The notes: generated from the sequence alone by a model not told the origin. DNA of 64,000 nucleotides from an uncultured Eubacteriales bacterium (GCA_964558915.1 CAZLFV010000001.1:6313-70312), one strand, 5' to 3'. Shown: positions 7,277-47,517, numbered from the stretch's first letter. Numbers and translations: made by a program.

Positions 7277-7645
7277 CTTTTTCAAAGACCCGTCCAGAGA
7301 GCAATCGCCTTCCTGCCCAAAATCGCCGCCAGATAATTATTGTTGTCCAATGATGAGGTCTTTTCAAAAGAGCTACCCCCTATTCTTGGCATCGCTCAAC
7401 GGGTGGCGCGGCTGGGGGGCCCCCCGACGAGGCTCGGGAGATGTGGCTCGAAGTCCCGCTGCGATTTCCCCAGCGAGGAAATCTTGCTCGATTCGCTCCT
7501 CGCTCTCCTCTTTGAGGAACCGTGCCCGCTCGTCGCTCATACGGACTTCTCGCCACATCCTCCCTCGCCTCACTCCCCGGGCGGGGGGATGCCGCGACAG
7601 GACCCGTTGACGAATGCCAATGGGATTTTGAGTTCAGGCCAACGA

Positions 7646-7674
7646 TTGAAATTTTAGAGCATTAGTGCTATAAA
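7646..7674 (+). promoter_or_regulatory. Sigma70-like promoter of the hrcA operon
   Basis: TTGAAA (7646-7651), 17-nt spacer, TATAAA (7669-7674), 15 nt before the hrcA ATG. The spacer contains AGCATTAGTGCT, an imperfect inverted repeat with a CIRCE-like right arm (AGTGCTAtAA). Confidence 0.4.
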
Positions 7675-36569: not shown

Positions 36570-38567
36570 TTAGTATCGCTTGAGTTTGAAGCTCGAGGCA
36601 ATCTGACGCACGATTTTTGGGGCCTTCTTCCCCTCGACTGTCCAGACGAAAACTTCAAGGCCGCGGCCGATGGCCGCTGCTGATTTCAGGCCCTGGGGAG
36701 AATCGGCGTAAAAAATTCTGTGATGCCGCGCTCTTCCTTTCTCGCGGCGGCCATGTGGCACGAGCTTCTCCAGAATCTTCCACATTCTCTGCTCCGCGTC
36801 CTGCCAGGGGAATATTACCTGCTGCTCTAGCACGGCTTTTGTCCCGTCCGGACCTTCGAGCCCCATAACCGTCGGGTTTGGCCAGGTGGCGTCGAGCCCA
36901 GAAAATCGGAAATCAGCCGGTTTCTTGACCTTGACCCCAAGCCAAGGATTATCATACCAGTTGTCCTTGATCTCAAAGGGTTTTGCTCCAGCGGGAACAA
37001 TATAGGTTATTCTCGCGATCTTATACTCGAGGATTTCGATTCCGACCTGGCCGAAAACTTGTTGAGCGGAGCCAAGCGCAATTTCCCCCCAGCCGTCTAT
37101 TAGCGATGAAGAGGCACAATAAAAGCGGGTTGCGTCGGCGACTCCTTCATTGACGATGGCCGCGTCCAGCGGTATCCACTTCTCCCCTACTCTGATTTCT
37201 GTCCAGGCGTGGCCCCCGAACATTCCAAGGGCATAGACGTATCCCATAACCACTCTTGAGGGTATCCTGGCGGCGCGGGCCAAAGAGGCCAGCAGCGTGG
37301 CGTAGCCGATACAGGTTCCGCGGCGGTCTCGGAAAATCTCCGTCGCCGGCGCAAAAGCAATACCCAAATCAAATTTCATGTTTTCGGCCACCCAGCGTTC
37401 CAGGGTGAGCGCCGCGGATAGAATATCCTTATGCTTGGCCACGAGCCGCTTAGCCAAGTCTTCAATCCCCGGATCATCGGATTGGATATAAACGTTGGGT
37501 TTGAGGTAGGCGCTGTTTTCCTCGGTCATGGCCACGGGAAAGCTCAATCCTTTGGCCCGCTTGGGCCGCTGGATTTCGAGGTCGAGCGTTTTTTCAGTTT
37601 GGGCAAGAACTTTCTGGGTTGGGCCGTTCATGTCGGGCCAGCCCAGACCCGGATTCTTATGGCTCAGCCTGAGCCTCATCCTGTCGATGGTCTTCGCTCG
37701 GGGAAGGCGGATATTCGCTGGCACGATCGACCTCTTATAAATCTCTTCCGGAAGCTCTCCTCCAGCCGCTGCTGCCAGGGCTGTTGCCTTATCCGAACGC
37801 AGAGCCTCTGTCGTGCCAAAAGGCCCTGATTCCTCCTGTTTAACAACATTTCCAAGCCGGTCGAGCCAGACAGTGCGCTTGACGGCCACGCCTGAGAAAA
37901 TCTCTTCAATCTTAAGCGCGGGGACATTCTCATCTCCCACCGCGAGCGTTTCCTCGGAAATCAGAGTCCTTTCCAACTGACTCACCCGGGAAGCTTCGGG
38001 AATGAAGGTCTGGGCGGTGACCTTATCGCCGGGATTTTTGAGTCCCAGTACGGAGAGCCTACGGATTCCCTCCGGGCCATAAAGCTCGCCCGCGTAATTC
38101 AGGGTGCGAACATATTTTTTCCCTCCAGCATCGCTCTGGATCTCGATCATCCCCGGGGTGATAAGGGCTTCCGCGCTTGTTTTCTGATTGGAGGCCGTCA
38201 TTTCAGATTGAACGGCCCGGAGCCGGCCCTCAACGGATTCCTCTGCGGTGGAGACAAACCCGAGTTCCACTTTGACGGCAAGGCGGTTAAGCACCAGCCG
38301 CATTTCCGAGGCAGTTTGAAGTACGCTGCCTTCGCCTTCCGGGGTGAGAACGGGCAAGGTGCGGAGGTTCTCGTGATAATATCCTACCGTATTGCCGCCG
38401 ATTTTTATGACATACCAGACGTCGTGCCCGGTTTGGGGCTGGCCTTGAGGAAGGGTCCCGGCACAGGGGGGCGGTGCAATCTGCAGGATGAAAATAAAAA
38501 CCGGGATAAAAACTGCAGCAAAACGAAATTTCACCCGGCCCACAGCGAACCTAAAAATTGAGTTCAT
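36570..38567 (-). CDS. Secreted transglutaminase-like cysteine protease domain protein
   Basis: 665 aa, signal peptide. C-terminal core RRGTCIGYATLLASLARAARIPSRVV...GGHAWTEI...PLDA (Cys-His-Asp). Confidence 0.8.
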   Translation of the reverse strand: MNSIFRFAVGRVKFRFAAVFIPVFIFILQIAPPPCAGTLPQGQPQTGHDVWYVIKIGGNTVGYYHENLRTLPVLTPEGEGSVLQTASEMRLVLNRLAVKVELGFVSTAEESVEGRLRAVQSEMTASNQKTSAEALITPGMIEIQSDAGGKKYVRTLNYAGELYGPEGIRRLSVLGLKNPGDKVTAQTFIPEASRVSQLERTLISEETLAVGDENVPALKIEEIFSGVAVKRTVWLDRLGNVVKQEESGPFGTTEALRSDKATALAAAAGGELPEEIYKRSIVPANIRLPRAKTIDRMRLRLSHKNPGLGWPDMNGPTQKVLAQTEKTLDLEIQRPKRAKGLSFPVAMTEENSAYLKPNVYIQSDDPGIEDLAKRLVAKHKDILSAALTLERWVAENMKFDLGIAFAPATEIFRDRRGTCIGYATLLASLARAARIPSRVVMGYVYALGMFGGHAWTEIRVGEKWIPLDAAIVNEGVADATRFYCASSSLIDGWGEIALGSAQQVFGQVGIEILEYKIARITYIVPAGAKPFEIKDNWYDNPWLGVKVKKPADFRFSGLDATWPNPTVMGLEGPDGTKAVLEQQVIFPWQDAEQRMWKILEKLVPHGRREKGRARHHRIFYADSPQGLKSAAAIGRGLEVFVWTVEGKKAPKIVRQIASSFKLKRY

Positions 38568-38752
38568 ATCGTGTTATCTCAAGGACGTTATTTTGCCCCG
38601 ACCGCCATTATAGTTTATCCCTATCGCCCGGGTTGAGGCAACATCGCCGAATAAAAAGCAAGCTTCTCTGGGAATACGGGGTTGGGAAAGGGCGAGAGCA
38701 GTTGCCTTAGGGGGAATTTTTAACTGACGCGATAAGTAGTAAGGGCGGACGT

Positions 38753-38869
38753 TTAGCAGACCGGACGCCGGCGCCTGCGGTTTTTGATGAGACGGCTGGT
38801 CAATACAGCCAAACCTCCGATCATCAGGCCGACAAGCCCGAACAATTTCCAGTTTCGGACCTTTAGCAT
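38753..38869 (-). CDS. Possible 38-aa single-pass membrane peptide (copy A)
   Basis: GGAGGAG SD 4 nt before ATG. MLKVRNWKLFGLVGLMIGGLAVLTSRLIKNRRRRRPVC. Identical ORF in copy B. Short, unverified. Confidence 0.3.
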   Translation of the reverse strand: MLKVRNWKLFGLVGLMIGGLAVLTSRLIKNRRRRRPVC

Positions 38870-38960
38870 CTGACTCCTCCGCTAATTTTGTCGCAGGACG
38901 GCCTTTTTTATGGACCAAATGGCTGTGGCCATAATCTGGCCGGATCAGTCCTCAGTATTT

Positions 38961-39320
38961 TTATCGAAATAGTATGCTATATTTCACAGCCTTTGAGCAG
39001 GTGGCGAATGGACGAAGCCTATCTCTTGTACCTTCCCATGACCTGACCCTGGGCGAGGATGTGCCCCTCCATGGCTTTGAGGAGCTCCGCCTTGGTCGCT
39101 CCAGCGGGGAAGCCGAGGACCGTGTCCAGAGCGTAGAGCTTGAAATAATATCTGTGCGTTCCGCCGGGAGGTTGGAGATGACCCAATGGACCCAGGTCCC
39201 CATCGGGGCATCGGGGTCGTCGCTGATCAAGGCGAAACTCTGAGTTTCCGCGGGCGCTCCGGACCACGAAAGAGGTGGCGAGAGATCCGCCCCGTCGCAA
39301 GTGTAGCGGCGGGGAATCAT
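38961..39320 (-). pseudogene. PEBP (YbhB/YbcL) family gene, internally deleted and 5'-truncated copy
   Basis: Matches 45199..45660 but lacks 115 nt (equivalent to 45352-45466), which shifts the frame. The two halves appear as ORFs 38961..39320 and 39019..39300. The first 14 codons and the SD are also missing. Confidence 0.85.
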
Positions 39321-39323
39321 CCC

Positions 39324-39550
39324 TTAAATTTTTCCTCGATAATGCTTCGTTTCACCTTCAAAGTGGGGGTGATTTCTCCCTTTCCAATATCAAAATCCCG
39401 GTCGAGAAGGGCGATTTTCTTGATTTTTTCATACGGGGCAAGATGGGGCGTGCTCCTGTCCACCTCTTCCAGCAAAAAGTCCCGAATGGCCTCTTTTTGG
39501 ACCGGCTCTTTCGGGCTGATATAAGAGACATTCTTCAGCTTGGCATATTC
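39324..39550 (-). pseudogene. 3'-terminal fragment of a long-chain acyl-CoA synthetase gene
   Basis: Encodes ...[78 protein letters not shown], homologous to the C-terminus of 45739..47517. No upstream part. Confidence 0.8.
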
Positions 39551-39623
39551 TTCGCTTCACGGCTCCTCCCCGTCTAAGCTCAGGCCAGTGGCTTCGAAAC
39601 CAGGCTCGTTTTACCCTGGCAGC

Positions 39624-39647
39624 CGCAACCTTGAGGTTGCGTTTTTT
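39624..39647 (+). terminator. Rho-independent terminator-like hairpin with no + strand gene upstream
   Basis: CGCAACC-TTGA-GGTTGCG followed by TTTTTT. A second 8-bp hairpin TCGCAAGC-TAAA-GCTTGCGA lies at 39652-39671. Confidence 0.5.
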
Positions 39648-39880
39648 AAAATCGCAAGCTAAAGCTTGCGACTACCAAGGCTTGCTTTTTCTATTCGCGG
39701 AGCCGTGCTCGCTCGTCCCTCCACGGGTTTTTTCAACTACTCGCTTTCGCCTTATCCCCAGATACCTCGCTGCGAGCGGGGCCTGGGGCTCCGCAGTGCC
39801 ACCCAAGTTTGATGACAGCTAAATTATCATAGAAAAAAGACGATTAAGGCAAAAACGTATCCCAAAAAGCTGTTGTTTTT

Positions 39881-39929
39881 TTGACATTTGCCTCAAGATG
39901 GCTTAAAATTTGTAACTAAAATAATTACG
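39881..39929 (+). promoter_or_regulatory. Promoter of the Rrf2 gene with operator-like half-palindrome
   Basis: TTGACA (39881-39886), 17 nt, TAAAAT (39904-39909). TGTAACTAA-A-ATAATTACG at 39911-39929 has 6/9 symmetric positions. Its left half is identical to the perfect palindrome at 42995. Confidence 0.5.
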
Positions 39930-39945
39930 TTTTTGCCACAATGCC

Positions 39946-40353
39946 ATGAAGTTACAAGCAAGAATAAGATACGCTATTCGGATCCTGGTCGAGATCGGGA
40001 AAAATCCGGACATACCTCTTTCCCTGCCGATAGTCGAAGAAAAACAGCACATTTCTGCGAAGTATGCCAGGCAAATCCTCCAGCCTCTTGAAGACAAAAG
40101 AATTGTCGGGAGCAGGCGTGGAATGAAGGGTGGATATTTTCTAAAGAAAAAAGCATCCAAGATTTCATTAATGGAGGTGATTGCTGCTTTAGCGGAAAAG
40201 GTGAAAGTTGCCCCCTGCCTGGAAACACCCGGAATCTGCGAACGAGAGGAAGTCTGCGGCGCTAAGACAAAGTGGGAAGATCTTCAGGGCCTGATTGAGA
40301 AGTTCTTCAAAAAGACGACAATCCAGGACGTGATCGACCGGGAAAGAGAGTAG
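39946..40353 (+). CDS. Rrf2-family transcriptional regulator with three-Cys cluster-binding motif
   Basis: 135 aa. MKLQARIRYAIRILVEIG wHTH N-terminus, then CLETPGICEREEVCG (C-x6-C-x6-C, close to the IscR C-x5-C-x5-C Cys spacing). Confidence 0.85.
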   Translation: MKLQARIRYAIRILVEIGKNPDIPLSLPIVEEKQHISAKYARQILQPLEDKRIVGSRRGMKGGYFLKKKASKISLMEVIAALAEKVKVAPCLETPGICEREEVCGAKTKWEDLQGLIEKFFKKTTIQDVIDRERE

Positions 40354-40361
40354 TCTCCGTT

Positions 40362-41171
40362 TTAGCGGCGGGCGGCCATGGTTTCTTCCAATCGCAGTCC
40401 TTTATTTTTGAAATAATCACTGATATATTTTCTCCCGATTGTTTCAAGTTTCGGCTTGATCGAATTCACCGTCATTTCAGCGGTCATCTCTTCCTTGACG
40501 TTGAAGAAATTCCGCTTCCAGTGAATCAGATAACCTGAGAGGCAGATGGGCTGGTATCTTTTATAGAACCTTTTGTTGAAGACGTCGAAGATAGACTTCT
40601 TTTTTCGGTCTAGGCTGTTGAAGTCGATCCTGGCCCCCAAACCCAGAAGCTCATCCCGGCGTTCCCTGCGCGTCTTGAAATTATAGAGGACGGGAAGATA
40701 GCTCACCCTGTATTCTCTGGCAAAACTCTTAATGACTTCCAAAAATTCGGGATAATTATCGGCTGTTGCCAATACTCGCTCTCCGTCCGGGGCCTGCTCC
40801 CAGTTGGCGCCATCCGTGAATTCTGGGATCTCATTTTCCAGGGCATAGATAATGCTCTGCAGCATCATCGACGCCCTGCAGGGGACGCACCAGGCAATCT
40901 CACTGCCGTACTGGCTCTTTGTCTCTTTATAGGTTTTGACCGCCATCTCTTTGAATAGCTCTTTGATCTCGATAAATGAATAAATGAATTTATTTTCCCC
41001 GTGAAGGCTCTTGAGCAGGCCGATATTGGCTTGATTCGCCTTCAAAGCGAAATGAAGATAGCCTTTGTTGAAGGTTACCAGGTGAACCCTGTCGTATTGA
41101 GGTGCAAGATAATGGGCGGCGTACAAAGAATCAATCCCGCCTGAAAACTGGATAATGACTTCTTTTTTCAA
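40362..41171 (-). CDS. PP-loop ATP pyrophosphatase superfamily protein, unassigned subfamily (putative sulfurtransferase)
   Basis: 269 aa, TTG start after AGGAG. SGGIDS at residues 10-15, CVPC motif mid-protein, third Cys in QPICLSGY. Confidence 0.7.
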   Translation of the reverse strand: MKKEVIIQFSGGIDSLYAAHYLAPQYDRVHLVTFNKGYLHFALKANQANIGLLKSLHGENKFIYSFIEIKELFKEMAVKTYKETKSQYGSEIAWCVPCRASMMLQSIIYALENEIPEFTDGANWEQAPDGERVLATADNYPEFLEVIKSFAREYRVSYLPVLYNFKTRRERRDELLGLGARIDFNSLDRKKKSIFDVFNKRFYKRYQPICLSGYLIHWKRNFFNVKEEMTAEMTVNSIKPKLETIGRKYISDYFKNKGLRLEETMAARR

Positions 41172-41186
41172 TTTTTTCTCCTAGAT

Positions 41187-41558
41187 TCAGAGGAAGGTTA
41201 AACCCTCAAAAATAAGGAACGAGGCCAGAACCAGGGTGCCGAACACAATCAGGTTGAAATATTTATAGACGGCTCCCGCAAGCGAAGAGGAAAAACCCAT
41301 CAGTCTTCCGCCTACCTTGCATCTGGTCGCTGAATCAAAAAGGAAAGGCTCATTGAGGATTCTATCGATCAACCCGCTCTCCAATTGTATGAAAGTTTTT
41401 AAAGCTCTGAGTCGCCTGGCGGCAAGGGTTGGGCTGAACAAACTGCCCACGGATAAAAGTGCGACGCGGAGGCCGCCAAAAGCTCCAACCATAAGGAACA
41501 GGGCCACTGGCAGAATCATCCATTGCTTTTTTCTTTTTCTCAACGCGCAGCAGGCCAT
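41187..41558 (-). CDS. Small membrane protein (123 aa), unknown function
   Basis: GGAGGAGG SD 4 nt before ATG. N-terminal MACCALRKRKK then a hydrophobic helix, with a second hydrophobic helix at the C-terminus. Packed 13 and 15 nt from its neighbours. Confidence 0.5.
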   Translation of the reverse strand: MACCALRKRKKQWMILPVALFLMVGAFGGLRVALLSVGSLFSPTLAARRLRALKTFIQLESGLIDRILNEPFLFDSATRCKVGGRLMGFSSSLAGAVYKYFNLIVFGTLVLASFLIFEGLTFL

Positions 41559-41571
41559 CGATCCTCCTCCT

Positions 41572-42795
41572 TTAGTGTCTAAAAAATTTCAGGACGCTTC
41601 GCAGTGAGCGGACCATTGTATCGATCTCTTCAAAGGTGTTGTAGACGCCGAAAGAAAACCTCAGAGAGTCAGGCTTTTTGTGGCTGTTGTACCAGGAATG
41701 GAGGCAGTGCTTTCCATAGCGGGCCATGATGTTTTCGGATTCGTTCAATATTTTGGAAGCGTCGGCCACAGGAATCCCCTCGATCCAGAGGTTGGTGATT
41801 CCGGAACGCAGCCGGGAGTCCAGCGGGCCGATGAATTGAACTCCGCGGATCTCAGACAGCCGGCTTGTAGCATGGGCATTGAGCTCTTTGATGTGCTCGT
41901 AGATATTTTCTTGCCCGATTTTGCGGATATAATCCACAGCAACGCCGGCTCCGATAGCTCCCGCATAGTCCTGTAACCCCGCTTCAAACTTGTCGGGAAG
42001 CGGCGAGATCTTTGCCGAGCCATAGGTAATGTCTTCGACCGTGCCTCCTCCGGCCAGAAATTGGGGAAGCTTATCCAGAAGCTCCTTTTTCCCGTAAAGG
42101 ATACCGGTCCCTGTTGGGCCCAACATCTTATGGACTGAGGCCACCATGAAATCGATGTCGAGCTTTTGGACATCGATGGGCCGGGAGAGGGCCGCCTGGG
42201 CGGCATCCACGCAAACCCAGGCCTCGTTTTTATGGGCGATCTGAATTATGTCTTCGATGGGAAAAGTAACGCCGGACAGGTTTGAAGTGTGGAGCACGGA
42301 CACGACTTTGACTTCCGGAGTCATCCGCTCTCGATACTTGTCCAGGTTAAAGGTTGTATCCGGATTTGTGGGGATGATCAGCCTTTGGATCTTTTTCTTT
42401 TTCTCGAGGAGCTGCCAGGGGAGAAGGTTTGAGTTATGTTCGATGTCTGAAGTGACAACAATATCGCCGGGGTTGAATTCGATGGTGTTAGCCAGGAGGT
42501 TAAGACCTTCGGTGGCGTTGCGGACAAAGATAATTTCTTCGGGATAGGCGGTATTAAAAAATTTGGCGATTTTTTTTCGAGCTTCTCCGTATTTTTTAGA
42601 GGTCTCGGAACCAAACCAATGATCGGTCCGGCCGTGGCAGCCCGGAAAATTATTGTAATAATCGAGAATGGCTTCGGTCACAGGCCTAGGCTTGAGAGTC
42701 ATGCAGGCGTTGTCAAAGTAGATAAGGGGCTTTTTTTTGATCGTCTGGTGCAGGGGAGCAAAGTCATCTCTCAGCTTGTGTACATTCAAGCTCAT
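41572..42795 (-). CDS. Cysteine desulfurase, SufS/CsdA-like (class V aminotransferase)
   Basis: 407 aa. YFDNA start region, PLP-Lys in ASVHKMLGPTGTGILYG, catalytic Cys loop RYGKHCLHSW (compare SufS RxGHHCA). Confidence 0.85.
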   Translation of the reverse strand: MSLNVHKLRDDFAPLHQTIKKKPLIYFDNACMTLKPRPVTEAILDYYNNFPGCHGRTDHWFGSETSKKYGEARKKIAKFFNTAYPEEIIFVRNATEGLNLLANTIEFNPGDIVVTSDIEHNSNLLPWQLLEKKKKIQRLIIPTNPDTTFNLDKYRERMTPEVKVVSVLHTSNLSGVTFPIEDIIQIAHKNEAWVCVDAAQAALSRPIDVQKLDIDFMVASVHKMLGPTGTGILYGKKELLDKLPQFLAGGGTVEDITYGSAKISPLPDKFEAGLQDYAGAIGAGVAVDYIRKIGQENIYEHIKELNAHATSRLSEIRGVQFIGPLDSRLRSGITNLWIEGIPVADASKILNESENIMARYGKHCLHSWYNSHKKPDSLRFSFGVYNTFEEIDTMVRSLRSVLKFFRH

Positions 42796-42973
42796 TAAGA
42801 CTTCATCCTTCGGTTGTTTTTAATTAAATTGGCAGCTGAATACATTTCAATATTCCCTCTCCCTGCCGAAATCGTTGAAAAAGGATATCCGTTAGAATTG
42901 TTTTCATCAGTTACGCTCGAGGTCAGCTTTATACTCGGCTCGCCATAAATCTAAAAGCGTTCCAATTCTTGAC

Positions 42974-43021
42974 TTTAGCTCGTTCGAGCTAAATTGTAAC
43001 TAAATTAGTTACATTTGTCAA
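42974..43021 (-). promoter_or_regulatory. Promoter of the desulfurase operon with two adjacent perfect palindromes
   Basis: Minus strand: TTGACA (43016-43021), 17 nt, TACAAT (42993-42998). The perfect palindrome TGTAACTAA-A-TTAGTTACA (42995-43013) fills the spacer. A second perfect palindrome TTTAGCTCG-TT-CGAGCTAAA lies at 42974-42993. Confidence 0.6.
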
Positions 43022-43069
43022 TCAGATATTGTATCCAAAGAATAAAATTGACGGAATCTTGCCGATGAA

Positions 43070-43684
43070 ATGGATTGTTTGGCTGACAATCCCTTTTTGT
43101 TCTGGGGGAGAATTAGACGGCTGATGGAAGAAGATTTGAAGCATCGGGGCAATACTCTGGCGTCATTGGCGCCAGACGAAATTATGGGCTGGAAGGCAAA
43201 GGAAGAACGGACCTATGATCCGCGGACAATTTTTGATTATATCGACGGTGCCGGGGAAGTCTACCGGTCCTATAATTTCAAAAATTTGCTCGCCCGTCGG
43301 TTTGAAAAGGAAGGGCAGACAGACCCAGTCGTTGATTTTTTTGATATGGGGCTGGCGAGCGATGCCTTCGGTGTCTTCACCCATGACCTCTAAGGAGAGG
43401 ATCCTGGCATCGGCCAGGGCTCAGCCTATAAAGGAGGATTGCTTTCTTTCTGGAAGGCATGAATCGGACCGACCTGCGCGAGGACTTCCCCTGGGGAGGG
43501 CTCGAACGGGGAGGTTTAAGCACACATTTCTTCCCCGGCACTTTTTTTTAATTCTTCGGGTAAAAGAGCTCGAGAGCAAATAGTGATTTATCCCGAGGCC
43601 CTGGCCGAAGCCCCGTTAACCGCGCCCTTTGATGCTGAAAAACGACCATGGGCTCTTTGGTTTTCTAGATGTGTTTAGGCCATA
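43070..43684 (+). pseudogene. Disrupted hypothetical gene at right edge of the cassette
   Basis: The 107-aa ORF ends at TAA 43391. The reading continues in the same frame as GEDPGIGQGSAYKGGLLSFWKA, then stops. Further protein-like stretches follow in other frames up to the duplication boundary. Confidence 0.4.
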
Positions 43685-43870
43685 CCGGGATTTTTGAGTC
43701 CTAGAACGGAGAGCCTACGGATTCCCTCCGGGCCATAAAGCTCGCCCGGGTTGAGGCAACATCGCCGAATAAAAAGCAAGCTTCTCTGGGAATGCGGGGT
43801 TGGGAAAGGGCGAGAGCAGTTGCCTTAGGGGGAATTTTTAACTGACGCGATAAGTAGTAAGGGCGGACGT

Positions 43871-43987
43871 TTAGCAGACCGGACGCCGGCGCCTGCGGTT
43901 TTTGATGAGACGGCTGGTCAATACAGCCAAACCTCCGATCATCAGGCCGACAAGCCCGAACAATTTCCAGTTTCGGACCTTTAGCAT
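43871..43987 (-). CDS. Possible 38-aa single-pass membrane peptide (copy B)
   Basis: Identical coding sequence to 38753..38869. One substitution lies in the SD-ATG spacer. Confidence 0.3.
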   Translation of the reverse strand: MLKVRNWKLFGLVGLMIGGLAVLTSRLIKNRRRRRPVC

Positions 43988-44137
43988 CTGGCTCCTCCGC
44001 TAATTTTGTCGCAGGACGGCCTTTTTTGGTGGACGAAATCGGCCTGGCTGGGAGCGCCTGTGAGAGCTGCTGTTCGTACCAGACCTCTGCTCTTTTGCTT
44101 ACCAGCGCGGACGGAGAGGGACAGCCCTGCTTTCAAT

Positions 44138-45133
44138 TCAGGTTTTGTGCTCTAAAGAAACGTTGTCGAGATAATCCAGCTCGTCCTTGGTCAGCTGGAT
44201 TTTCATACTTTCTGCGTTCTCCGTGGCCTGGGTGGTCCGAGTCGCGCCCGGGATGGCAACGACTGTCTCTCCACGTGAGTGAATCACCCAGCTGAGGGCG
44301 ACCTCGGCGAGCGAGCCGTTGTGGTGTTGCGCGACCTCCCGCAACGCCGCGATCACGGGCCGGGAGCGCTCAAGGCCCTTGGGCCTGAATGCGGACAAGT
44401 ATTTTCTGTAACCGCCTCTGCTCCGGATCAATCCCGGATTCTCATGGAATTTTCCAGAGAGAAGCCCTTGGGCCAATGGAGAATACGCGATGATAGAAAT
44501 TCCGAGCTCGCGGGCTGTTTCCAGAATGCCGTTCTGCTCGATTCTCCGGTCGAGCAAACTGTAGCGGACCTGATTTGAGACAAGCTGCAGGCCTTCGTTC
44601 TGGAGGAGCCGATGCGAGACTCTCATCTGCTTGGCTGAAAAATTGCTGACTCCGATATAGCGAATTTTACGATTCCGGACCAGCCCAGCCATGGATTCGA
44701 CCTGCTTCTCAATCGAGGAAAAAGAAAAAGGATTGTGGATTTGATAGAGGTCTATAGGAAAACCGGCCAGCACTTCCAGCCTCCGGTCGATCGTTTTGGC
44801 GATCGACCTGGCCGTCCGGAAAATTGGCCGCCATTTGGTGGCGATGATGATATCTCCAGGGATTCTTCCCAATGTGTTGAGAGCTTGCGCAAGGGCTCTC
44901 TCTGATTCTCCAGCGCCGTAAGCTTCGGCCGTATCAAACCAATTCACCCCACCCCGGAGGCTGGCTTCAACGATTCCGGCAATCTCCGCTTCGGGCAAAT
45001 TGGGCCAATAGCGTCCGTTCAGTCCTCTGCCTCGGCTGAACTGCCAGCATCCCAGCCCGACCGGCGAGACCATCAGCTCGGATTGTCCCAGTCGTCTGAG
45101 AGGAGGAATGGATGCGGCCATAATCTTATCCAA
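44138..45133 (-). CDS. Aldo/keto reductase
   Basis: 331 aa (TTG 45133, alternative ATG 45121). GLGCWQF, FDTAEAYG, GVSNF and AYSPLAQG motifs. Confidence 0.85.
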   Translation of the reverse strand: MDKIMAASIPPLRRLGQSELMVSPVGLGCWQFSRGRGLNGRYWPNLPEAEIAGIVEASLRGGVNWFDTAEAYGAGESERALAQALNTLGRIPGDIIIATKWRPIFRTARSIAKTIDRRLEVLAGFPIDLYQIHNPFSFSSIEKQVESMAGLVRNRKIRYIGVSNFSAKQMRVSHRLLQNEGLQLVSNQVRYSLLDRRIEQNGILETARELGISIIAYSPLAQGLLSGKFHENPGLIRSRGGYRKYLSAFRPKGLERSRPVIAALREVAQHHNGSLAEVALSWVIHSRGETVVAIPGATRTTQATENAESMKIQLTKDELDYLDNVSLEHKT

Positions 45134-45198
45134 AATATTTCTATCGAAATAGTATGGTATATTTCACAGCCTTTGAGCAGGTGGCGAATGGACGAAGC

Positions 45199-45660
45199 CT
45201 ATCTCTTGTACCTTCCCATGACCTGACCCTGGGCGAGGATGTGCCCCTCCATGGCTTTGAGGAGCTCCGCCTTGGTCGCTCCAGCGGGGAAGCCGAGGAC
45301 CGTGTCCAGAGCGTAGAGCTTGAAATAATATCTGTGCGTTCCGCCGGGAGGACAGGGGCCACCGTAGCCGATCTTTCTGAAATCATTGCGACCCTGGCGG
45401 GCGCCATTTTTAAGGTCCTTTTCGGGCGGGACCGCTTCGTGGAGTTCGCTCGCGCTCGCCGGCAGGTTGTAGATAACCCAATGGACCCAGGTCCCCATCG
45501 GGGCATCGGGGTCGTCGCTGATCAAGGCGAAACTCTGAGTTTCCGCGGGCGCTCCGGACCACGAAAGAGGTGGCGAGAGATCCGCCCCGTCGCAAGTGTA
45601 GCGGCGGGGAATCATCCCCCCTTCTTCAAATGCAGTGCTGGTGATTTTTAGGTCCATCAT
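45199..45660 (-). CDS. PEBP-family protein (YbhB/YbcL, Raf kinase inhibitor-like)
   Basis: Start set at ATG 45660 after [20 protein letters not shown] and [20 protein letters not shown] signatures. The longer ORF to 45735 would add a hydrophobic leader, so a secreted form cannot be excluded. Confidence 0.85.
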   Translation of the reverse strand: MMDLKITSTAFEEGGMIPRRYTCDGADLSPPLSWSGAPAETQSFALISDDPDAPMGTWVHWVIYNLPASASELHEAVPPEKDLKNGARQGRNDFRKIGYGGPCPPGGTHRYYFKLYALDTVLGFPAGATKAELLKAMEGHILAQGQVMGRYKR

Positions 45661-45738
45661 CTCTCCTCCTCTAGAGAAAATTGTCCCTATAAACATCAAG
45701 AGAATGGTCGGCCAGAGGCATTGCCTTTGATGCATCTC

Positions 45739-47517
45739 TCACTCCTTGTAGAGAGAGTCGATCACACCCTTAAATTTTTCCTCGATAATGCTTCGTTTCA
45801 CCTTCAAAGTGGGGGTGATTTCTCCCTTTCCAATATCAAAATCCCGGTCGAGAAGGGCGATTTTCTTGATTTTTTCATACGGGGCAAGATGGGGCGTGCT
45901 CCTGTCCACCTCTTCCAGCAAAAAGTCCCGAATGGCCTCTTTTTGGAGCAGGTCTTTGGCGCCGGCATAAGGAATGTTCTTGAGCTTGGCGTAATCCTCG
46001 AGTTTTTCGAGATCCGGGACGATGAGGGCCGAGATGAATTTTCTTTTGCCGCCGATGACCACGGCGTTCAGGATGTACGAATTTTGCTTGAGCATGTTCT
46101 CGATCGGCTGCGGAGCGATGTTTTTTCCGCCCGAGGTGATAATCAAGTCTTTTTTCCTGTCGGTGATGGTGAGGAAGCCCTGGTCATCGAGATGACCGAT
46201 GTCTCCTGTCTGGAGCCAGCCGTCCAGCAGAGTTTCCCGCGTCTCCTCCTCTTTCTTGTAATAGCCCCTCATAATGTTTGGTCCCCGGGCCAGGATCTCT
46301 CCGTCAGGCGCAATCTTCACCTCTACGCCCGGGATAGGCTTTCCCACTGTTCCGAATTTCAGGTCATTGAACGTATTCACGGCAATCACCGGGGAGCTTT
46401 CGGTTAGGCCATAGCCTTCCAAGACGACCAGGCCCAGGGCGAAAAAAAACTCGGCGATGTCCTTTGACAGCGGCGCTCCTCCGGAGACGAAGAAGCGGAC
46501 CCGGCCGCCGGTTTTTTCGAGAATCTTGGAGAAGACGAGCTTACGAGCGAGGTTGGCGCGGAAGCGAAGGGAGCCTGAGACAGGCTGATGAAAAAAGCTT
46601 TTTTCGCGATATTGCTTCCCTGTTTTAACGGCCCAGAAAAAGATCTTTTTTTTCAACCCGGACCCGGCCAGAATCGTGTCCATGACCTTGGCGTAGATCT
46701 TTTCAAAAAGCCGGGGGACGCTAACCATAATGGTTGGCCGAACCTCGATCAGGTTGTCGGCCACAGTCTCGACGCTTTCGGCATAGGCGATGGAACAGCC
46801 TTTATAGAGGAAGGCAAAGATAACCAGCCGCTCGAGCACGTGGGAAAGGGGAAGGAACGACAAGTCTGTATCTTTATCTCCGAAATCAATAATTGAAGCG
46901 AGTGTCTTGATATTGCTGACGAAGTTAGCGTGAGTGAGCATGACTCCCTTGGGAATCCCCGTCGTGCCGGAGGTATAGATAATGGAAGCGAGATCATCCG
47001 GTTTGACAGTAAGGACGATTTCTTCAAAAAGGCCGGGACGTTGGGCCTGGATTTTTTCTCCGCGCTCCAGGATTTGCGACAGGGGCAATAGTCCGTCCTG
47101 AGTCTGGGTCTCAAAGGTGATGAAATTTCTCACTAAGGGCAGGTCCTTTTTTACGGCTGCCACTTTCTCCCAAAGTGCTGGTCCGGACACAATAACGACC
47201 TTGGCGTCCGAGTCATTGATGATATATTTGACTTGTTCAGGGACCAGTGAGGTGTAGACTGGAACCGTTATCCCTCCAAGAGAGAGAACGGCGTAATCCG
47301 TGATTGTCCATTCGGGGCCATTATCGGCAAGAAGAATCACCTTGTCGCCATGGCTCACGCCTAACTCGTGCAGCCCCAGGGCCAGGCGGATGACCCTGTT
47401 TCTGAATTCTTCCGTGGAGATGGAGACATAGCGCCCCTCTTTTTTGGACAGCATAATGTCCGGCTTGGGATATGATTTGGTCAGATGAAGAAACATTTGC
47501 GGAAGGGTATCGGTCAT
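45739..47517 (-). CDS. Long-chain-fatty-acid--CoA ligase (AMP-forming)
   Basis: 592 aa. AMP-binding motif IIYTSGTTGIPKGVMLTH, GYGLTESS, TGDIG...DRKKDLI. Confidence 0.9.
   Translation of the reverse strand: MTDTLPQMFLHLTKSYPKPDIMLSKKEGRYVSISTEEFRNRVIRLALGLHELGVSHGDKVILLADNGPEWTITDYAVLSLGGITVPVYTSLVPEQVKYIINDSDAKVVIVSGPALWEKVAAVKKDLPLVRNFITFETQTQDGLLPLSQILERGEKIQAQRPGLFEEIVLTVKPDDLASIIYTSGTTGIPKGVMLTHANFVSNIKTLASIIDFGDKDTDLSFLPLSHVLERLVIFAFLYKGCSIAYAESVETVADNLIEVRPTIMVSVPRLFEKIYAKVMDTILAGSGLKKKIFFWAVKTGKQYREKSFFHQPVSGSLRFRANLARKLVFSKILEKTGGRVRFFVSGGAPLSKDIAEFFFALGLVVLEGYGLTESSPVIAVNTFNDLKFGTVGKPIPGVEVKIAPDGEILARGPNIMRGYYKKEEETRETLLDGWLQTGDIGHLDDQGFLTITDRKKDLIITSGGKNIAPQPIENMLKQNSYILNAVVIGGKRKFISALIVPDLEKLEDYAKLKNIPYAGAKDLLQKEAIRDFLLEEVDRSTPHLAPYEKIKKIALLDRDFDIGKGEITPTLKVKRSIIEEKFKGVIDSLYKE

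What the first reader, a model, noticed from the sequence alone, without database searches (positions are those of the whole stretch)
39881..43021. Rrf2-controlled desulfurase / small membrane protein / PP-loop ATPase cassette: candidate uncharacterised thiolation module
Four genes form a compact unit.
- The Rrf2 regulator (39946..40353) has a three-Cys motif, CLETPGICEREEVCG, like cluster-binding IscR-type members. It converges tail-to-tail, 8 nt between stops, on a three-gene minus-strand operon.
- The first operon gene is a SufS-type cysteine desulfurase (41572..42795), with PLP-Lys in SVHKMLGPTG and catalytic Cys in RYGKHCLHSW.
- The second is a 123-aa protein with hydrophobic N- and C-terminal helices and an MACCAL start (41187..41558).
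- The third is a 269-aa PP-loop ATP pyrophosphatase (40362..41171). It has SGGIDS at residues 10-15, a CVPC motif mid-protein and a third Cys in QPICLSGY.

Intergenic gaps are 13 and 15 nt, each with its own strong SD. PP-loop plus CxxC plus a distal Cys is the ligand layout of [4Fe-4S]-dependent thiolases of the TtcA/TtuA type. By motif inspection I cannot place this protein in TtcA, TtuA, QueC, LarE, ThiI, MnmA or TilS.

The cassette combines a dedicated persulfide source, an adenylating sulfurtransferase, an unexplained membrane component and an Fe-S-type repressor. That has the logic of a self-contained sulfur-insertion pathway. Its substrate (tRNA base, cofactor or small molecule) is not evident. 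The unit sits in a recombination-scarred accessory segment.
Basis: partly seen in the sequence, partly recalled or inferred. Interest (0 to 1): 0.75.

Follow-up and report, generated by a model that had tools for sequence, protein, structure and literature searches.

The report
Rrf2-controlled YcfA-like sulfur-insertion cassette
A four-gene unit conserved in Aminicenantes bacteria most likely puts sulfur into a target that is still unknown; its core enzyme is a distant, uncharacterised relative of the 6-thioguanine enzyme YcfA, and its conserved small membrane partner carries a Cys-Cys motif.

Summary

- **Core enzyme.** The 269-aa PP-loop protein fits no curated family. Profile and fold searches place it nearest YcfA, the thioamide-forming enzyme of 6-thioguanine biosynthesis (profile E 4e-11; TM 0.71/0.86; about 15% identity). 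YcfA's guanine and L-Cys contact residues are not kept. The protein's only three cysteines (C95, C98, C210) are invariant. Their spacing matches the [4Fe-4S] ligands of CtaC.
- **Partners.** The PLP enzyme keeps the SufS catalytic Cys, unlike YcfC.
- **Co-occurrence.** SufS-like, 123-aa and PP-loop genes occur in that order in 19 of 19 assessable loci anchored on the small protein.
- **Regulation.** A 19-bp palindrome overlaps the operon promoter, and a weaker copy follows the Rrf2 promoter. It is conserved across species.
- **New.** The small protein starts M-A-C-C-A-L-[KR]-K. An unrelated 54-aa membrane peptide ending QGGCC[IV][RK][RK] precedes a paralogous PP-loop group. CC-bearing small ORFs also follow two of four distant homologues.

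Best reading: an ATP-dependent, probably Fe-S-dependent sulfur-insertion module with a Cys-Cys membrane partner. The substrate is unknown. It is a new variant of a known kind.

The parts
39881..39909 (+). Sigma-70-like promoter of the Rrf2 gene (TTGACA-17-TAAAAT, 11 of 12 matches)
   Evidence: It is one of the two best promoter-like sites in 39600-43300.
39911..39929 (.). Imperfect copy of the operator palindrome (TGTAACTAAAATAATTACG), directly after the -10 of the Rrf2 promoter. This suggests autoregulation.
   Evidence: family D7; 3 mismatches to the perfect site. The same second site occurs beside Rrf2 in L071, L072, L078 and L080.
39946..40353 (+). Rrf2-family regulator, 135 aa, with three Cys (PC-x6-C-xR-x3-CG) invariant in orthologues. 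Probable Fe-S-sensing repressor.
   Evidence: PF02082 6e-29; below the IscR, CymR and NsrR equivalog cut-offs; invariant Cys in 17 orthologues.
40362..41171 (-). YcfA-like PP-loop ATP pyrophosphatase, 269 aa. SGGIDS at 10-15. Its only three Cys (C95, C98, C210) are invariant. pI 9.3.
41187..41558 (-). 123-aa protein with two hydrophobic segments. N-terminal M-A-C-C-A-L-R-K-R-K-K, invariant EPFLFDS and R-C80. Partner (sulfur relay or target) of the PP-loop enzyme.
   Evidence: No Pfam or NCBIfam family. The AF2 model has low confidence.
41572..42795 (-). SufS-type (type II) cysteine desulfurase, 407 aa. The PLP-Lys (HKM) and catalytic-Cys loop (RYGKHC) align with those of SufS structures.
   Evidence: (TIGR01979 389.7 bits, below the 475.1 cut-off).
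42796..42992 (-). 5' leader of about 190 nt. It is not conserved, is about 90 nt longer than in the closest relatives, and has no Rfam match.
42993..43021 (-). Sigma-70-like promoter of the three-gene operon (TTGACA-17-TACAAT, 11 of 12 matches)
   Evidence: The block TTGACAAATGTAACTAATTTAGTTACAAT is nearly invariant in five loci while the leader is not.
42995..43013 (.). Perfect 9-1-9 palindrome TGTAACTAA-A-TTAGTTACA spanning the spacer and -10 of the operon promoter. Putative Rrf2 operator.
   Evidence: It is conserved upstream of the first operon gene in many loci.
38029..39554 (.). Left flank: a mosaic of duplicated fragments, including a truncated PEBP-like gene and the last 52 codons of an acyl-CoA ligase. 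These copy right-flank sequence at 43685-46000.
   Evidence: (D1-D5, D8).

Best explanation
The cassette is a self-contained sulfur-insertion module that is repressed through a palindromic operator.

Shown:
- Four genes with conserved order.
- A SufS-type PLP enzyme that keeps its persulfide-forming Cys.
- A PP-loop enzyme of the YcfA fold with an invariant Cys triad.
- A small hydrophobic protein with an invariant N-terminal Cys-Cys.
- An Rrf2 protein with three invariant Cys.
- A 19-bp palindrome overlapping the operon promoter, with a weaker copy at the Rrf2 promoter.

Inferred mechanism:
1. The Rrf2 dimer binds the palindrome and blocks the -10 region. Binding is probably governed by an Fe-S cluster on its three Cys. 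Release induces the operon.
2. The SufS-like enzyme takes sulfur from L-cysteine as an enzyme persulfide.
3. The membrane-anchored Cys-Cys protein accepts and relays that sulfur, playing the role SufE, SufU or TusA play elsewhere. The neighbouring Cys could release it as sulfide.
4. The PP-loop enzyme adenylates a carbonyl oxygen of its substrate with ATP, releasing PPi as YcfA does.
5. The enzyme replaces the activated oxygen with sulfur. The sulfur is held at a [4Fe-4S] cluster on C95, C98 and C210, as in TtuA, TtcA and CtaC. The product is a thioamide or thiocarbonyl.

The substrate is not identified. It is probably anionic and not guanine.
For: - **Closest relative.** YcfA, by profile (E 3.8e-11) and by fold (top 20 Foldseek hits; TM 0.71/0.86; rmsd 2.4-2.7 Å; the next families reach TM 0.49 or less, apart from ThiI-RNA complexes at 0.52-0.54). 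The model is confident (pLDDT 89).
- **Catalytic residues.** The PP-loop Asp and YcfA's catalytic Gln129 are kept as invariant D14 and Q126.
- **Cys triad.** The three Cys are the only Cys in the protein and are invariant. CxxC[KR] and QPC persist in most of 149 distant representatives. The nearby His217 does not, which argues against a Cys3His zinc site. The spacing D14 / C95, C98 / C210 parallels CtaC's D77 / C154, C157 / C284 [4Fe-4S] ligands.
- **Desulfurase.** It aligns full length with SufS structures, including the PLP Lys and the catalytic Cys.
- **Co-occurrence.** SufS, small protein and PP-loop occur together in 19 of 19 assessable loci, in varied flanking contexts.
- **Joint loss.** SufS and the small protein were lost together in one nested clade that keeps the PP-loop, Rrf2 and operator. 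This suggests they form a supply unit rather than the sole substrate.
- **CC partners elsewhere.** CC-motif small ORFs accompany paralogue group C (about 27 of 33 loci) and two of four distant homologues. One of these sits next to a thioredoxin-reductase-like flavoprotein and a NifU_N gene.
- **Regulation.** Operator and promoter evidence is.
- **Charge.** The enzyme is basic (pI about 9-9.5), with eight invariant or near-invariant Arg/Lys (seven invariant plus K219).
Against: - There is no biochemical evidence. Fe-S binding is inferred from Cys pattern and spacing alone.
- I could not read the model's coordinates, so I could not check that the three Cys come together in space.
- The CxxC could not be aligned to NcsA's by profile comparison; only the PP-loop aligned.
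- YcfA itself needs no cluster and no persulfide.
- A membrane-anchored sulfur relay has no precedent that I know of.
- Paralogue group B and the 'solo' clade of group A have no adjacent CC protein.
- Group C has the CC peptide but no dedicated desulfurase.
- One distant homologue lies in a RiPP-like cluster, which favours peptides as substrates.
Confidence: 0.45

Rival explanations
1. The Cys-Cys small protein is the substrate, not a relay. The PP-loop enzyme adenylates a backbone or side-chain carbonyl at or next to the CC motif. It then installs a thioamide, or drives thiazoline formation. The product would be a modified membrane-anchored peptide, in a RiPP-like or post-translational pathway.
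For: - A small ORF with a conserved CC motif lies immediately next to the PP-loop gene, in the same direction, in four unrelated small-protein families.
- A distant homologue sits inside a RiPP-like cluster with rSAM enzymes, PqqD, YcaO and a 78-aa Cys-containing peptide.
- CtaC shows that Fe-S AANH enzymes can thioamidate peptide backbones.
Against: - A nested group A clade kept the PP-loop, Rrf2 and operator but lost the small protein and SufS together.
- Group B has no CC partner.
- The enzyme is strongly basic, and so is the flank of the CC motif (RKRKK), which is a poor electrostatic match.
- The proteins have no recognisable leader/core organisation, protease or exporter.
Confidence: 0.2
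2. It is a tRNA thiolation module built on the logic of CymR-YrvO-MnmA or IscR-IscS-MnmA: an Rrf2 regulator, a dedicated desulfurase and a PP-loop thiolase that makes a thionucleoside in tRNA.
For: - The gene logic matches. An actual Rrf2-IscS-like-MnmA-like operon turned up in L069. The B. subtilis cymR-yrvO-mnmA arrangement is from my own knowledge.
- The enzyme is basic, with many invariant Arg/Lys.
- Weak PP-loop matches to MnmA, ThiI and NcsA were found.
Against: - The protein has a single domain, with no THUMP domain, zinc finger or MnmA C-terminal barrel.
- It scores below threshold for all tRNA-thiolase models.
- Its nearest relative acts on free nucleotides.
- The family proper is confined to one phylum, with up to two detected copies per assembly drawn from three paralogous groups, which is unusual for a core tRNA modification.
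- It has a conserved membrane partner and envelope-glycosylation neighbours.
Confidence: 0.15
3. It is a YcfA/YcfC-type pathway that makes a thiopurine-like or other thioamide nucleotide antimetabolite.
For: - It gives the best sequence and fold match to YcfA.
- Its partner is a PLP enzyme of the same fold class as YcfC.
- The cassette is compositionally distinct and flanked by rearrangement scars.
Against: - YcfA residues R18, Y128, F132, E134 and Q135, which bind guanine, L-Cys and the triphosphate, are replaced by invariant I13 and E125 and by variable positions.
- YcfC lacks the catalytic Cys and acts as a C-S lyase, whereas this partner keeps the SufS Cys.
- No additional accessory genes (such as a hydrolase or exporter) accompany the three operon genes.
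- YcfA has no equivalent of the Cys triad.
Confidence: 0.08
4. It does not insert sulfur. The PP-loop enzyme is an amidotransferase or nitrile synthetase of the QueC, ArtA or WbuX type with a structural metal site. The desulfurase merely serves Fe-S or cysteine metabolism under an IscR-like regulator.
For: - The best curated HMM hits, though below threshold, are to QueC.
- ArtA nitrile synthetase and QueC form the second tier of Foldseek matches.
- Several paralogues sit among sugar-modifying genes.
Against: - The tight, conserved desulfurase / CC-protein / PP-loop operon has one operator.
- QueC's C-terminal Cys4 zinc motif is absent.
- There is no glutaminase or ammonia-donor partner.
- Three Cys without a conserved fourth ligand fits an open-site [4Fe-4S] cluster better than structural zinc.
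Confidence: 0.07

Closest known systems
YcfA-YcfC (6-thioguanine thioamide formation, Erwinia amylovora; PDB 9KQ6/9KQ7/9KQ9/9KQD; PMC12494993)
   Same: - A PP-loop adenylating enzyme paired with a PLP enzyme of the class V aminotransferase / desulfurase fold.
- The best profile hit (E 3.8e-11) and the best fold match (TM 0.71/0.86).
- The PP-loop Asp and catalytic Gln129 are conserved (as D14 and Q126).
   Different: - About 15% identity.
- The guanine, L-Cys and triphosphate contact residues are not conserved.
- This family adds an invariant CxxC...C triad and about 35 extra C-terminal residues.
- The partner keeps the persulfide-forming Cys, whereas YcfC lacks it and is a C-S lyase.
- A Cys-Cys membrane protein and an Rrf2 regulator are added.
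[4Fe-4S]-dependent AANH sulfur-insertion enzymes: TtuA, TtcA, NcsA/Ncs6, CtaC (closthioamide; PMC6772006), T. maritima LarE (PMC9283937)
   Same: A PP-loop plus three conserved Cys arranged as CxxC followed by a distal Cys. The spacing is very close to CtaC's (D77 / C154, C157 / C284 against D14 / C95, C98 / C210). Sulfur comes from a cysteine desulfurase.
   Different: - No significant HMM or profile match beyond the PP-loop.
- Fold similarity is clearly lower than to YcfA (TM about 0.4).
- There are no zinc fingers or tRNA-binding modules.
- Cluster binding is untested.
Rrf2-desulfurase-MnmA operons (B. subtilis cymR-yrvO-mnmA; iscR-iscS-mnmA types, e.g. L069)
   Same: The same three-part logic: an Rrf2 regulator, a dedicated cysteine desulfurase and a PP-loop thiolase encoded together.
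   Different: - The PP-loop enzyme is not MnmA.
- The desulfurase is type II (SufS-like), not type I (IscS/NifS-like).
- The regulator gene converges on the operon.
- A Cys-Cys membrane protein is inserted between the two enzymes.
QueC (7-cyano-7-deazaguanine synthase), the name some databases give to homologues
   Same: PP-loop fold; weak N-terminal HMM match.
   Different: Scores are below the cut-offs (19.4 against 22 bits; 21.6 against 150.3 bits). QueC's C-terminal Cys4 zinc site is absent. The genomic context is unrelated.

Membership tests
YcfA (thioamide-forming AANH of 6-thioguanine biosynthesis) | PP-loop SGGxDS with the catalytic Asp (YcfA D19) | tested here: met
   SGGIDS at 10-15 is invariant and aligns to the YcfA motif TGGRDS.
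YcfA (thioamide-forming AANH of 6-thioguanine biosynthesis) | Full-length fold match to YcfA structures | tested here: met
   The top 20 Foldseek PDB hits are all YcfA chains: E 1.7e-10, TM 0.71 (query) / 0.86 (target), rmsd 2.4-2.7 Å. The model has pLDDT 89.
YcfA (thioamide-forming AANH of 6-thioguanine biosynthesis) | Catalytic Gln129 (stabilises the ATP transition state and bridges a proton to L-Cys) | tested here: met
   It aligns to the invariant Q126 of DGANWEQ.
YcfA (thioamide-forming AANH of 6-thioguanine biosynthesis) | Guanine nucleotide and L-Cys binding residues R18, Y128, F132, E134, Q135 | tested here: not met
   The aligned positions are I13 (invariant), E125 (invariant), D129, E131 and R132 (the last three variable within the family).
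YcfA (thioamide-forming AANH of 6-thioguanine biosynthesis) | The partner is a Cys-less PLP C-S lyase (YcfC) | tested here: not met
   The partner aligns full length to SufS, with the catalytic Cys loop RYGKHC retained. YcfC lacks that Cys.
YcfA (thioamide-forming AANH of 6-thioguanine biosynthesis) | Two-layer heptameric assembly needed for activity | not testable with these tools
   Only monomer prediction was available.
TtuA/TtcA/NcsA/CtaC-type [4Fe-4S] AANH sulfurtransferases | Three conserved Cys (CxxC plus a distal Cys) downstream of the PP-loop | tested here: met
   C95, C98 and C210 are invariant in 26 sequences and largely kept in distant representatives. They are the only Cys in the protein. 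The spacing resembles CtaC's.
TtuA/TtcA/NcsA/CtaC-type [4Fe-4S] AANH sulfurtransferases | Sequence membership (family HMMs, or profile alignment including the CxxC) | tested here: not met
   No TtcA or TtuA model is hit. NcsA gives E 0.15. hhalign aligns only the PP-loop.
TtuA/TtcA/NcsA/CtaC-type [4Fe-4S] AANH sulfurtransferases | An oxygen-labile [4Fe-4S] cluster required for activity | not testable with these tools
   This needs anaerobic reconstitution and spectroscopy.
QueC | Score at or above the curated cut-off, and the C-terminal Cys4 zinc motif | tested here: not met
   PF06508 19.4 against 22; TIGR00364 21.6 against 150.3. Only three Cys are present, at different positions.
MnmA / ThiI / LarE / TilS | Score at or above the curated cut-offs | tested here: not met
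   All hits have E of 0.02 or worse, cover only the first 35 to about 110 residues (the PP-loop N-terminal region), and score far below the cut-offs.
SufS (type II cysteine desulfurase), for the 407-aa protein | Class V fold, PLP Lys and catalytic Cys loop aligned with SufS | tested here: met
   Aminotran_5 7e-109. E 3e-82 to 1T3I and 7e-79 to B. subtilis SufS, with HKM and (H/K)HC aligned.
SufS (type II cysteine desulfurase), for the 407-aa protein | NCBIfam sufS subfamily cut-off, and SufE, SufU or SufBCD partners | tested here: not met
   TIGR01979 389.7 against 475.1. No suf genes lie next to it in any locus.
Fe-S-binding Rrf2 regulators (IscR, NsrR, RirA type) | Rrf2 domain with three conserved C-terminal Cys | tested here: met
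   PF02082 6e-29. PC-x6-C-x5-CG is invariant in 17 orthologues. The protein scores below all named equivalog cut-offs.

The most novel reading that the evidence does not exclude
The SGGxDS...CxxC[KR]...QPC PP-loop superfamily has at least 520 clusters at 50% identity across many uncultured phyla and no curated family. On this reading it works with, or on, small proteins that carry a vicinal Cys-Cys motif. Either of two things would then be true:
- These are a new type of (often membrane-anchored) sulfur carrier for Fe-S-dependent thiolation.
- They are ribosomal substrates of a new ATP-dependent and Fe-S-dependent peptide thio-modification, independent of YcaO/TfuA.
Probability: 0.25. Interest if true: 0.85.

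Novelty: new variant of a known kind. Interest (0 to 1): 0.66.

Why it matters
- **A possible mechanistic hybrid.** Sulfur-inserting PP-loop enzymes make thionucleosides, cofactors and thioamide antibiotics. Only a few mechanistic types are known: persulfide relay, Fe-S-bound sulfide, sacrificial Cys, and the YcfA Cys-adduct/lyase route. This cassette joins a YcfA-type fold to an Fe-S-type Cys triad and a true desulfurase. It may therefore be a hybrid of two routes.
- **A ready-made test set.** The cassette brings its own regulator, operator and sulfur source, so it can be tested directly.
- **A handle on a large unannotated family.** The recurring Cys-Cys small-protein partner gives a concrete starting point for a superfamily that databases now call 'hypothetical' or mislabel as QueC, MnmA or TilS.
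- **An uncultured phylum.** It also bears on the sulfur and envelope biology of Aminicenantes, which has no cultured member.

Tried and rejected
- **Curated families.** Pfam and NCBIfam scans of all four proteins placed the PP-loop and small proteins in no family. The same held for ten distant homologues and for the CC small proteins of other loci.
- **RNA elements.** An Rfam scan of 38500-44500 at E up to 1 found nothing. The long 5' leader is not conserved, so I dropped the riboswitch idea.
- **Plasmids.** tblastn against PLSDB plasmids gave no match.
- **Small-protein model.** The AF2 model has pLDDT 66 and pTM 0.36, too poor for Foldseek, so I did not run that search.
- **NcsA comparison.** hhalign of the family profile against the NcsA segment aligned only the PP-loop, so ligand equivalence stays unproven.
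- **Uninformative look-ups.** Context look-ups for distant homologues P0111 and P0114 returned contigs of only 1.7 kb.
- **Literature.** Searches for DUF7411, PF24167 and MJ0690, for Aminicenantes with desulfurase or Rrf2, and for AANH enzymes in RiPP thioamidation found no prior description.
- **Zinc site.** I considered a Cys3His zinc site using His217. It is disfavoured because His217 is not conserved in distant homologues while the three Cys are.
- **Fe-S biogenesis operon.** I considered a minimal IscR-type Fe-S biogenesis operon. I rejected it as the main reading because there is no scaffold homologue and the third gene is a PP-loop pyrophosphatase.

Full report
**1. Observation**

- The Rrf2 protein matches PF02082 (6e-29). 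The 407-aa protein matches Aminotran_5 (7e-109).
- The 269-aa protein reaches no curated threshold: QueC 19.4 bits against a cut-off of 22, DUF7411 18.1 against 28.7. MnmA, ThiI, LarE and WbuX match only the PP-loop N-terminal region (at most the first 110 residues).
- The 123-aa protein matches nothing.
- The long form of the small protein (M-A-C-C-A-L...) is the real one. In 17 distinct loci the ATG has an AGGAG-type SD 5-8 nt upstream. The first codons vary synonymously (GCC/GCT, TGC/TGT, CTG/TTA/CTT) while the residues stay fixed.
- The setting is indeed scarred. Segments at 38029-39554 are 93-99% copies of segments at 43685-46000, including a truncated PEBP-like gene and the 3' end of an acyl-CoA ligase gene.
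- The cassette has about 47% GC against 53-56% around it.

**2. The PP-loop enzyme**

- Close homologues form 105 clusters. Every named one comes from Candidatus Aminicenantes or Acidobacteriota metagenome-assembled genomes.
- A species-level genome scan found 62 loci. They fall into three paralogous groups: A (60-89% identical to the window protein), B (50-58%) and C (38-44%). One assembly often carries two of them.
- Invariant positions include SGGIDS, W-C95-x-P-C98-R, D-G-x-N-x-E-Q126-x-P, Q-P-x-C210-x-S-G and eight invariant or near-invariant Arg/Lys.
- The window protein has only three Cys, which are exactly these. Its pI is 9.3.
- A profile of the family hits one solved protein significantly. 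This is 9KQ6, E 3.8e-11 over positions 9-184.
- 9KQ6 is YcfA of Erwinia amylovora, the enzyme that adenylates guanine nucleotides and adds L-cysteine during 6-thioguanine biosynthesis (PMC12494993).
- The AlphaFold model is confident (pLDDT 89, pTM 0.90).
- Its 20 best PDB matches are all YcfA chains (TM 0.71 by query length, 0.86 by target length; rmsd 2.4-2.7 Å).
- The next families (ArtA, QueC, argininosuccinate synthetase, MnmA, TtuA) reach TM 0.49 at most, apart from the ThiI-RNA complexes (4KR6, 4KR7) at 0.52-0.54.
- YcfA's PP-loop Asp and its catalytic Gln129 are conserved here.
- YcfA's residues that hold guanine, the triphosphate and L-Cys (R18, Y128, F132, E134, Q135) are not conserved. 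YcfA also has no CxxC.
- So the protein works like YcfA in its adenylation half, but it is not a YcfA orthologue.

**3. The wider superfamily**

- An exhaustive profile search found 520 representatives at 50% identity with E up to 1e-3.
- Of 149 distant ones, about 128 keep CxxC at the aligned positions. Where the C-terminal part aligns, QPC is kept.
- His217 near C210 is not conserved. Three conserved Cys without a conserved fourth ligand fits the open-site [4Fe-4S] clusters of TtuA, TtcA and CtaC. CtaC's ligands (C154, C157, C284, with the PP-loop at D77/S78) have almost the same spacing.
- This equivalence is inferred. Profile comparison with NcsA aligned only the PP-loop, and I could not inspect model coordinates.
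- None of these proteins has a curated family or an informative name.
- One representative is fused to a TudS-like desulfidase domain.

**4. The partners**

- The 407-aa protein aligns end to end with SufS structures (1T3I at 3e-82; B. subtilis SufS at 7e-79). Both the PLP lysine and the catalytic cysteine loop align.
- It is below the NCBIfam sufS cut-off (389.7 against 475.1). No SufE, SufU or SufBCD gene is nearby.
- This differs from YcfC, which lacks the catalytic Cys and is a C-S lyase.
- The 123-aa protein belongs to a 47-cluster family.
- That family has M-[AP]-C-C-A-L-[RK]-K nearly invariant, and the EPFLFD core of EPFLFDS and R-C80 invariant.
- It has two hydrophobic segments (12-41 and 97-123) with Lys/Arg-rich flanks.

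**5. Co-occurrence**

- In the genome scan, seven group A species have SufS-like, small protein and PP-loop genes in that order.
- Loci anchored independently on the small protein give the same trio in 19 of 19 assessable cases. They sit in at least four different flanking contexts. Rrf2 converges on the operon in most of them.
- One clade nested inside group A kept the PP-loop gene, Rrf2 and the operator but lost the desulfurase and small protein together. Its members come from hydrothermal-type MAGs and share a ZnuABC / M20 peptidase context.
- That pattern suggests the two lost genes form a sulfur-supply unit rather than the enzyme's only substrate.

**6. Regulation**

- The two best sigma-70-like promoters in the region (11 of 12 matches each) lie before the operon (43021..42993, minus strand) and before Rrf2 (39881..39909).
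- A perfect 9-1-9 palindrome, TGTAACTAA-A-TTAGTTACA (42995-43013), spans the spacer and -10 of the operon promoter. An imperfect copy (39911-39929) follows the -10 of the Rrf2 promoter.
- The palindrome recurs just upstream of the first operon gene in other species, whether that gene is the desulfurase or, in the 'solo' clade, the PP-loop gene. A shuffled control gave 7 hits in 919 kb.
- In five close loci the promoter-operator block is nearly invariant, while the leader behind it is not.
- The Rrf2 orthologues keep three Cys.
- A cluster-sensing Rrf2 repressor that also autoregulates is the simplest reading.

**7. The Cys-Cys partner recurs**

- In paralogue group C, about 27 of 33 loci have a 51-60-aa ORF 60-240 nt upstream of the PP-loop gene. 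It is a single hydrophobic helix followed by [FW]-[FW]-[HY]-Q-G-G-C-C-[IV]-[RK]-[RK] and a basic tail.
- This ORF is not detectably related to the 123-aa protein. It shares only 'CC, one hydrophobic residue, then a basic run' next to a membrane helix.
- Two of four distant homologues whose context I could retrieve also have a CC-bearing ORF directly downstream:
  - One starts MPCCGGNKGGK. It is followed by a thioredoxin-reductase-like flavoprotein, a NifU_N gene and a GT2 gene.
  - The other carries KKKCCEQ plus a hydrophobic helix.
- With Cys at about 1% of residues, a CC dipeptide is expected in about 1% of 100-residue proteins. Four unrelated partners with it are unlikely to be chance.
- Group B and the 'solo' clade have no such neighbour.
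- Another distant homologue, from Omnitrophota, sits in a RiPP-like cluster: B12-rSAM, a 78-aa Cys-containing peptide, rSAM, TPR, PqqD, rSAM and YcaO.
- Envelope glycosylation genes recur near groups B, C and distant members. These include GT2, GT4, ArnT/PMT-like transferases, epimerases, rSAM-SPASM and PD40 proteins.

**8. Mechanism and rivals**

The best-supported mechanism is an Rrf2-gated sulfur-insertion pathway. The steps are a desulfurase persulfide, hand-over to the Cys-Cys membrane protein, and then the PP-loop enzyme. That enzyme adenylates a carbonyl as YcfA does and substitutes sulfur from a probable [4Fe-4S]-bound sulfide as TtuA and CtaC do.

- The fold, motifs, gene linkage and operator are shown. 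Cluster binding, sulfur hand-over and the chemistry are inferred.
- The substrate is unknown. The enzyme's basic character points to an anionic substrate (nucleotide, RNA or phospho-linked lipid or sugar). The loss of YcfA's guanine contacts argues against guanine.
- The rivals, each with a refuting experiment in its own section, are:
  - The CC protein is itself the substrate.
  - It is a tRNA thiolase on the CymR-YrvO-MnmA pattern. A true Rrf2-IscS-MnmA operon is seen in L069.
  - It is a YcfA-like thiopurine pathway.
  - It is a non-sulfur amidotransferase.

**9. Novelty**

- I found no description in the searchable literature. Database names are 'hypothetical' or borrowed from QueC, MnmA or TilS.
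- The kind of system, a PP-loop thiolase with a dedicated desulfurase and an Rrf2 regulator, is known.
- What is new is the YcfA-fold enzyme with an Fe-S-type triad, the Cys-Cys membrane partner and the operator. I therefore rate it a new variant of a known kind, with a more novel reading not excluded.

Noticed in passing
window 38029-39554 and 43685-46000: The left flank is a mosaic of direct repeats (93-99% identical) of right-flank sequence. It includes a truncated copy of the PEBP-like gene (intact at 45199-45735) and the last 52 codons of the acyl-CoA ligase gene (intact at 45739-47517). The repeats bracket the cassette plus an aldo-keto reductase gene. This could be a real rearrangement or an assembly artefact.
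   Followed up: partly
L007, L036, L042, L066 and about 23 other group C loci, 60-240 nt upstream of the PP-loop gene: A conserved 51-60-aa single-helix membrane peptide ending ...F[HY]QGGCC[IV][RK][RK]..., with no family assignment. It lies among GT2, GT4, ArnT-like, epimerase, methyltransferase and rSAM-SPASM genes.
   Followed up: partly
L096 1-8729 (Omnitrophota, 'Ca. Gygaella'): A distant PP-loop homologue (P0238) sits in a RiPP-like cluster with a B12-rSAM enzyme, a 78-aa Cys/Ser-rich peptide, two further rSAM enzymes, TPR proteins, PqqD and YcaO.
   Followed up: no
L094 5001-8340: A distant homologue is followed by a 120-aa ORF starting MPCCGGNKGGK, a thioredoxin-reductase-like flavoprotein, an unknown 274-aa protein, a NifU_N gene and a GT2 gene. 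Two carbamoyltransferase genes precede it.
   Followed up: partly
L013 about 7600-7650 (closed Aminicenantes chromosome OY969696.1): The small-protein gene carries a one-base change in the A-rich tract that encodes KKKKQ. This shifts the frame after residue 10. It is either a homopolymer sequencing error or a slippage-prone tract.
   Followed up: no
P0139 (386 aa): A superfamily member is fused to a TudS-related (thiouracil desulfidase-like) [4Fe-4S] domain.
   Followed up: no
window 41187-41558: The public gene call for this protein (P0255, 110 aa) starts at Met14. This removes the conserved MACCALRKRKKQ N-terminus.
   Followed up: yes
window 43070-43393 (+): A 107-aa ORF between the operon promoter and the repeat at 43685 looks like a truncated gene fragment. 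I did not analyse it.
   Followed up: no
L069 6248-10477 (Ca. Anaeroferrophillacea): A classical co-directional operon of Rrf2, an IscS/NifS-like desulfurase, an MnmA-like PP-loop enzyme and a MiaB-like rSAM enzyme. It is a useful known comparator for the operon logic.
   Followed up: partly
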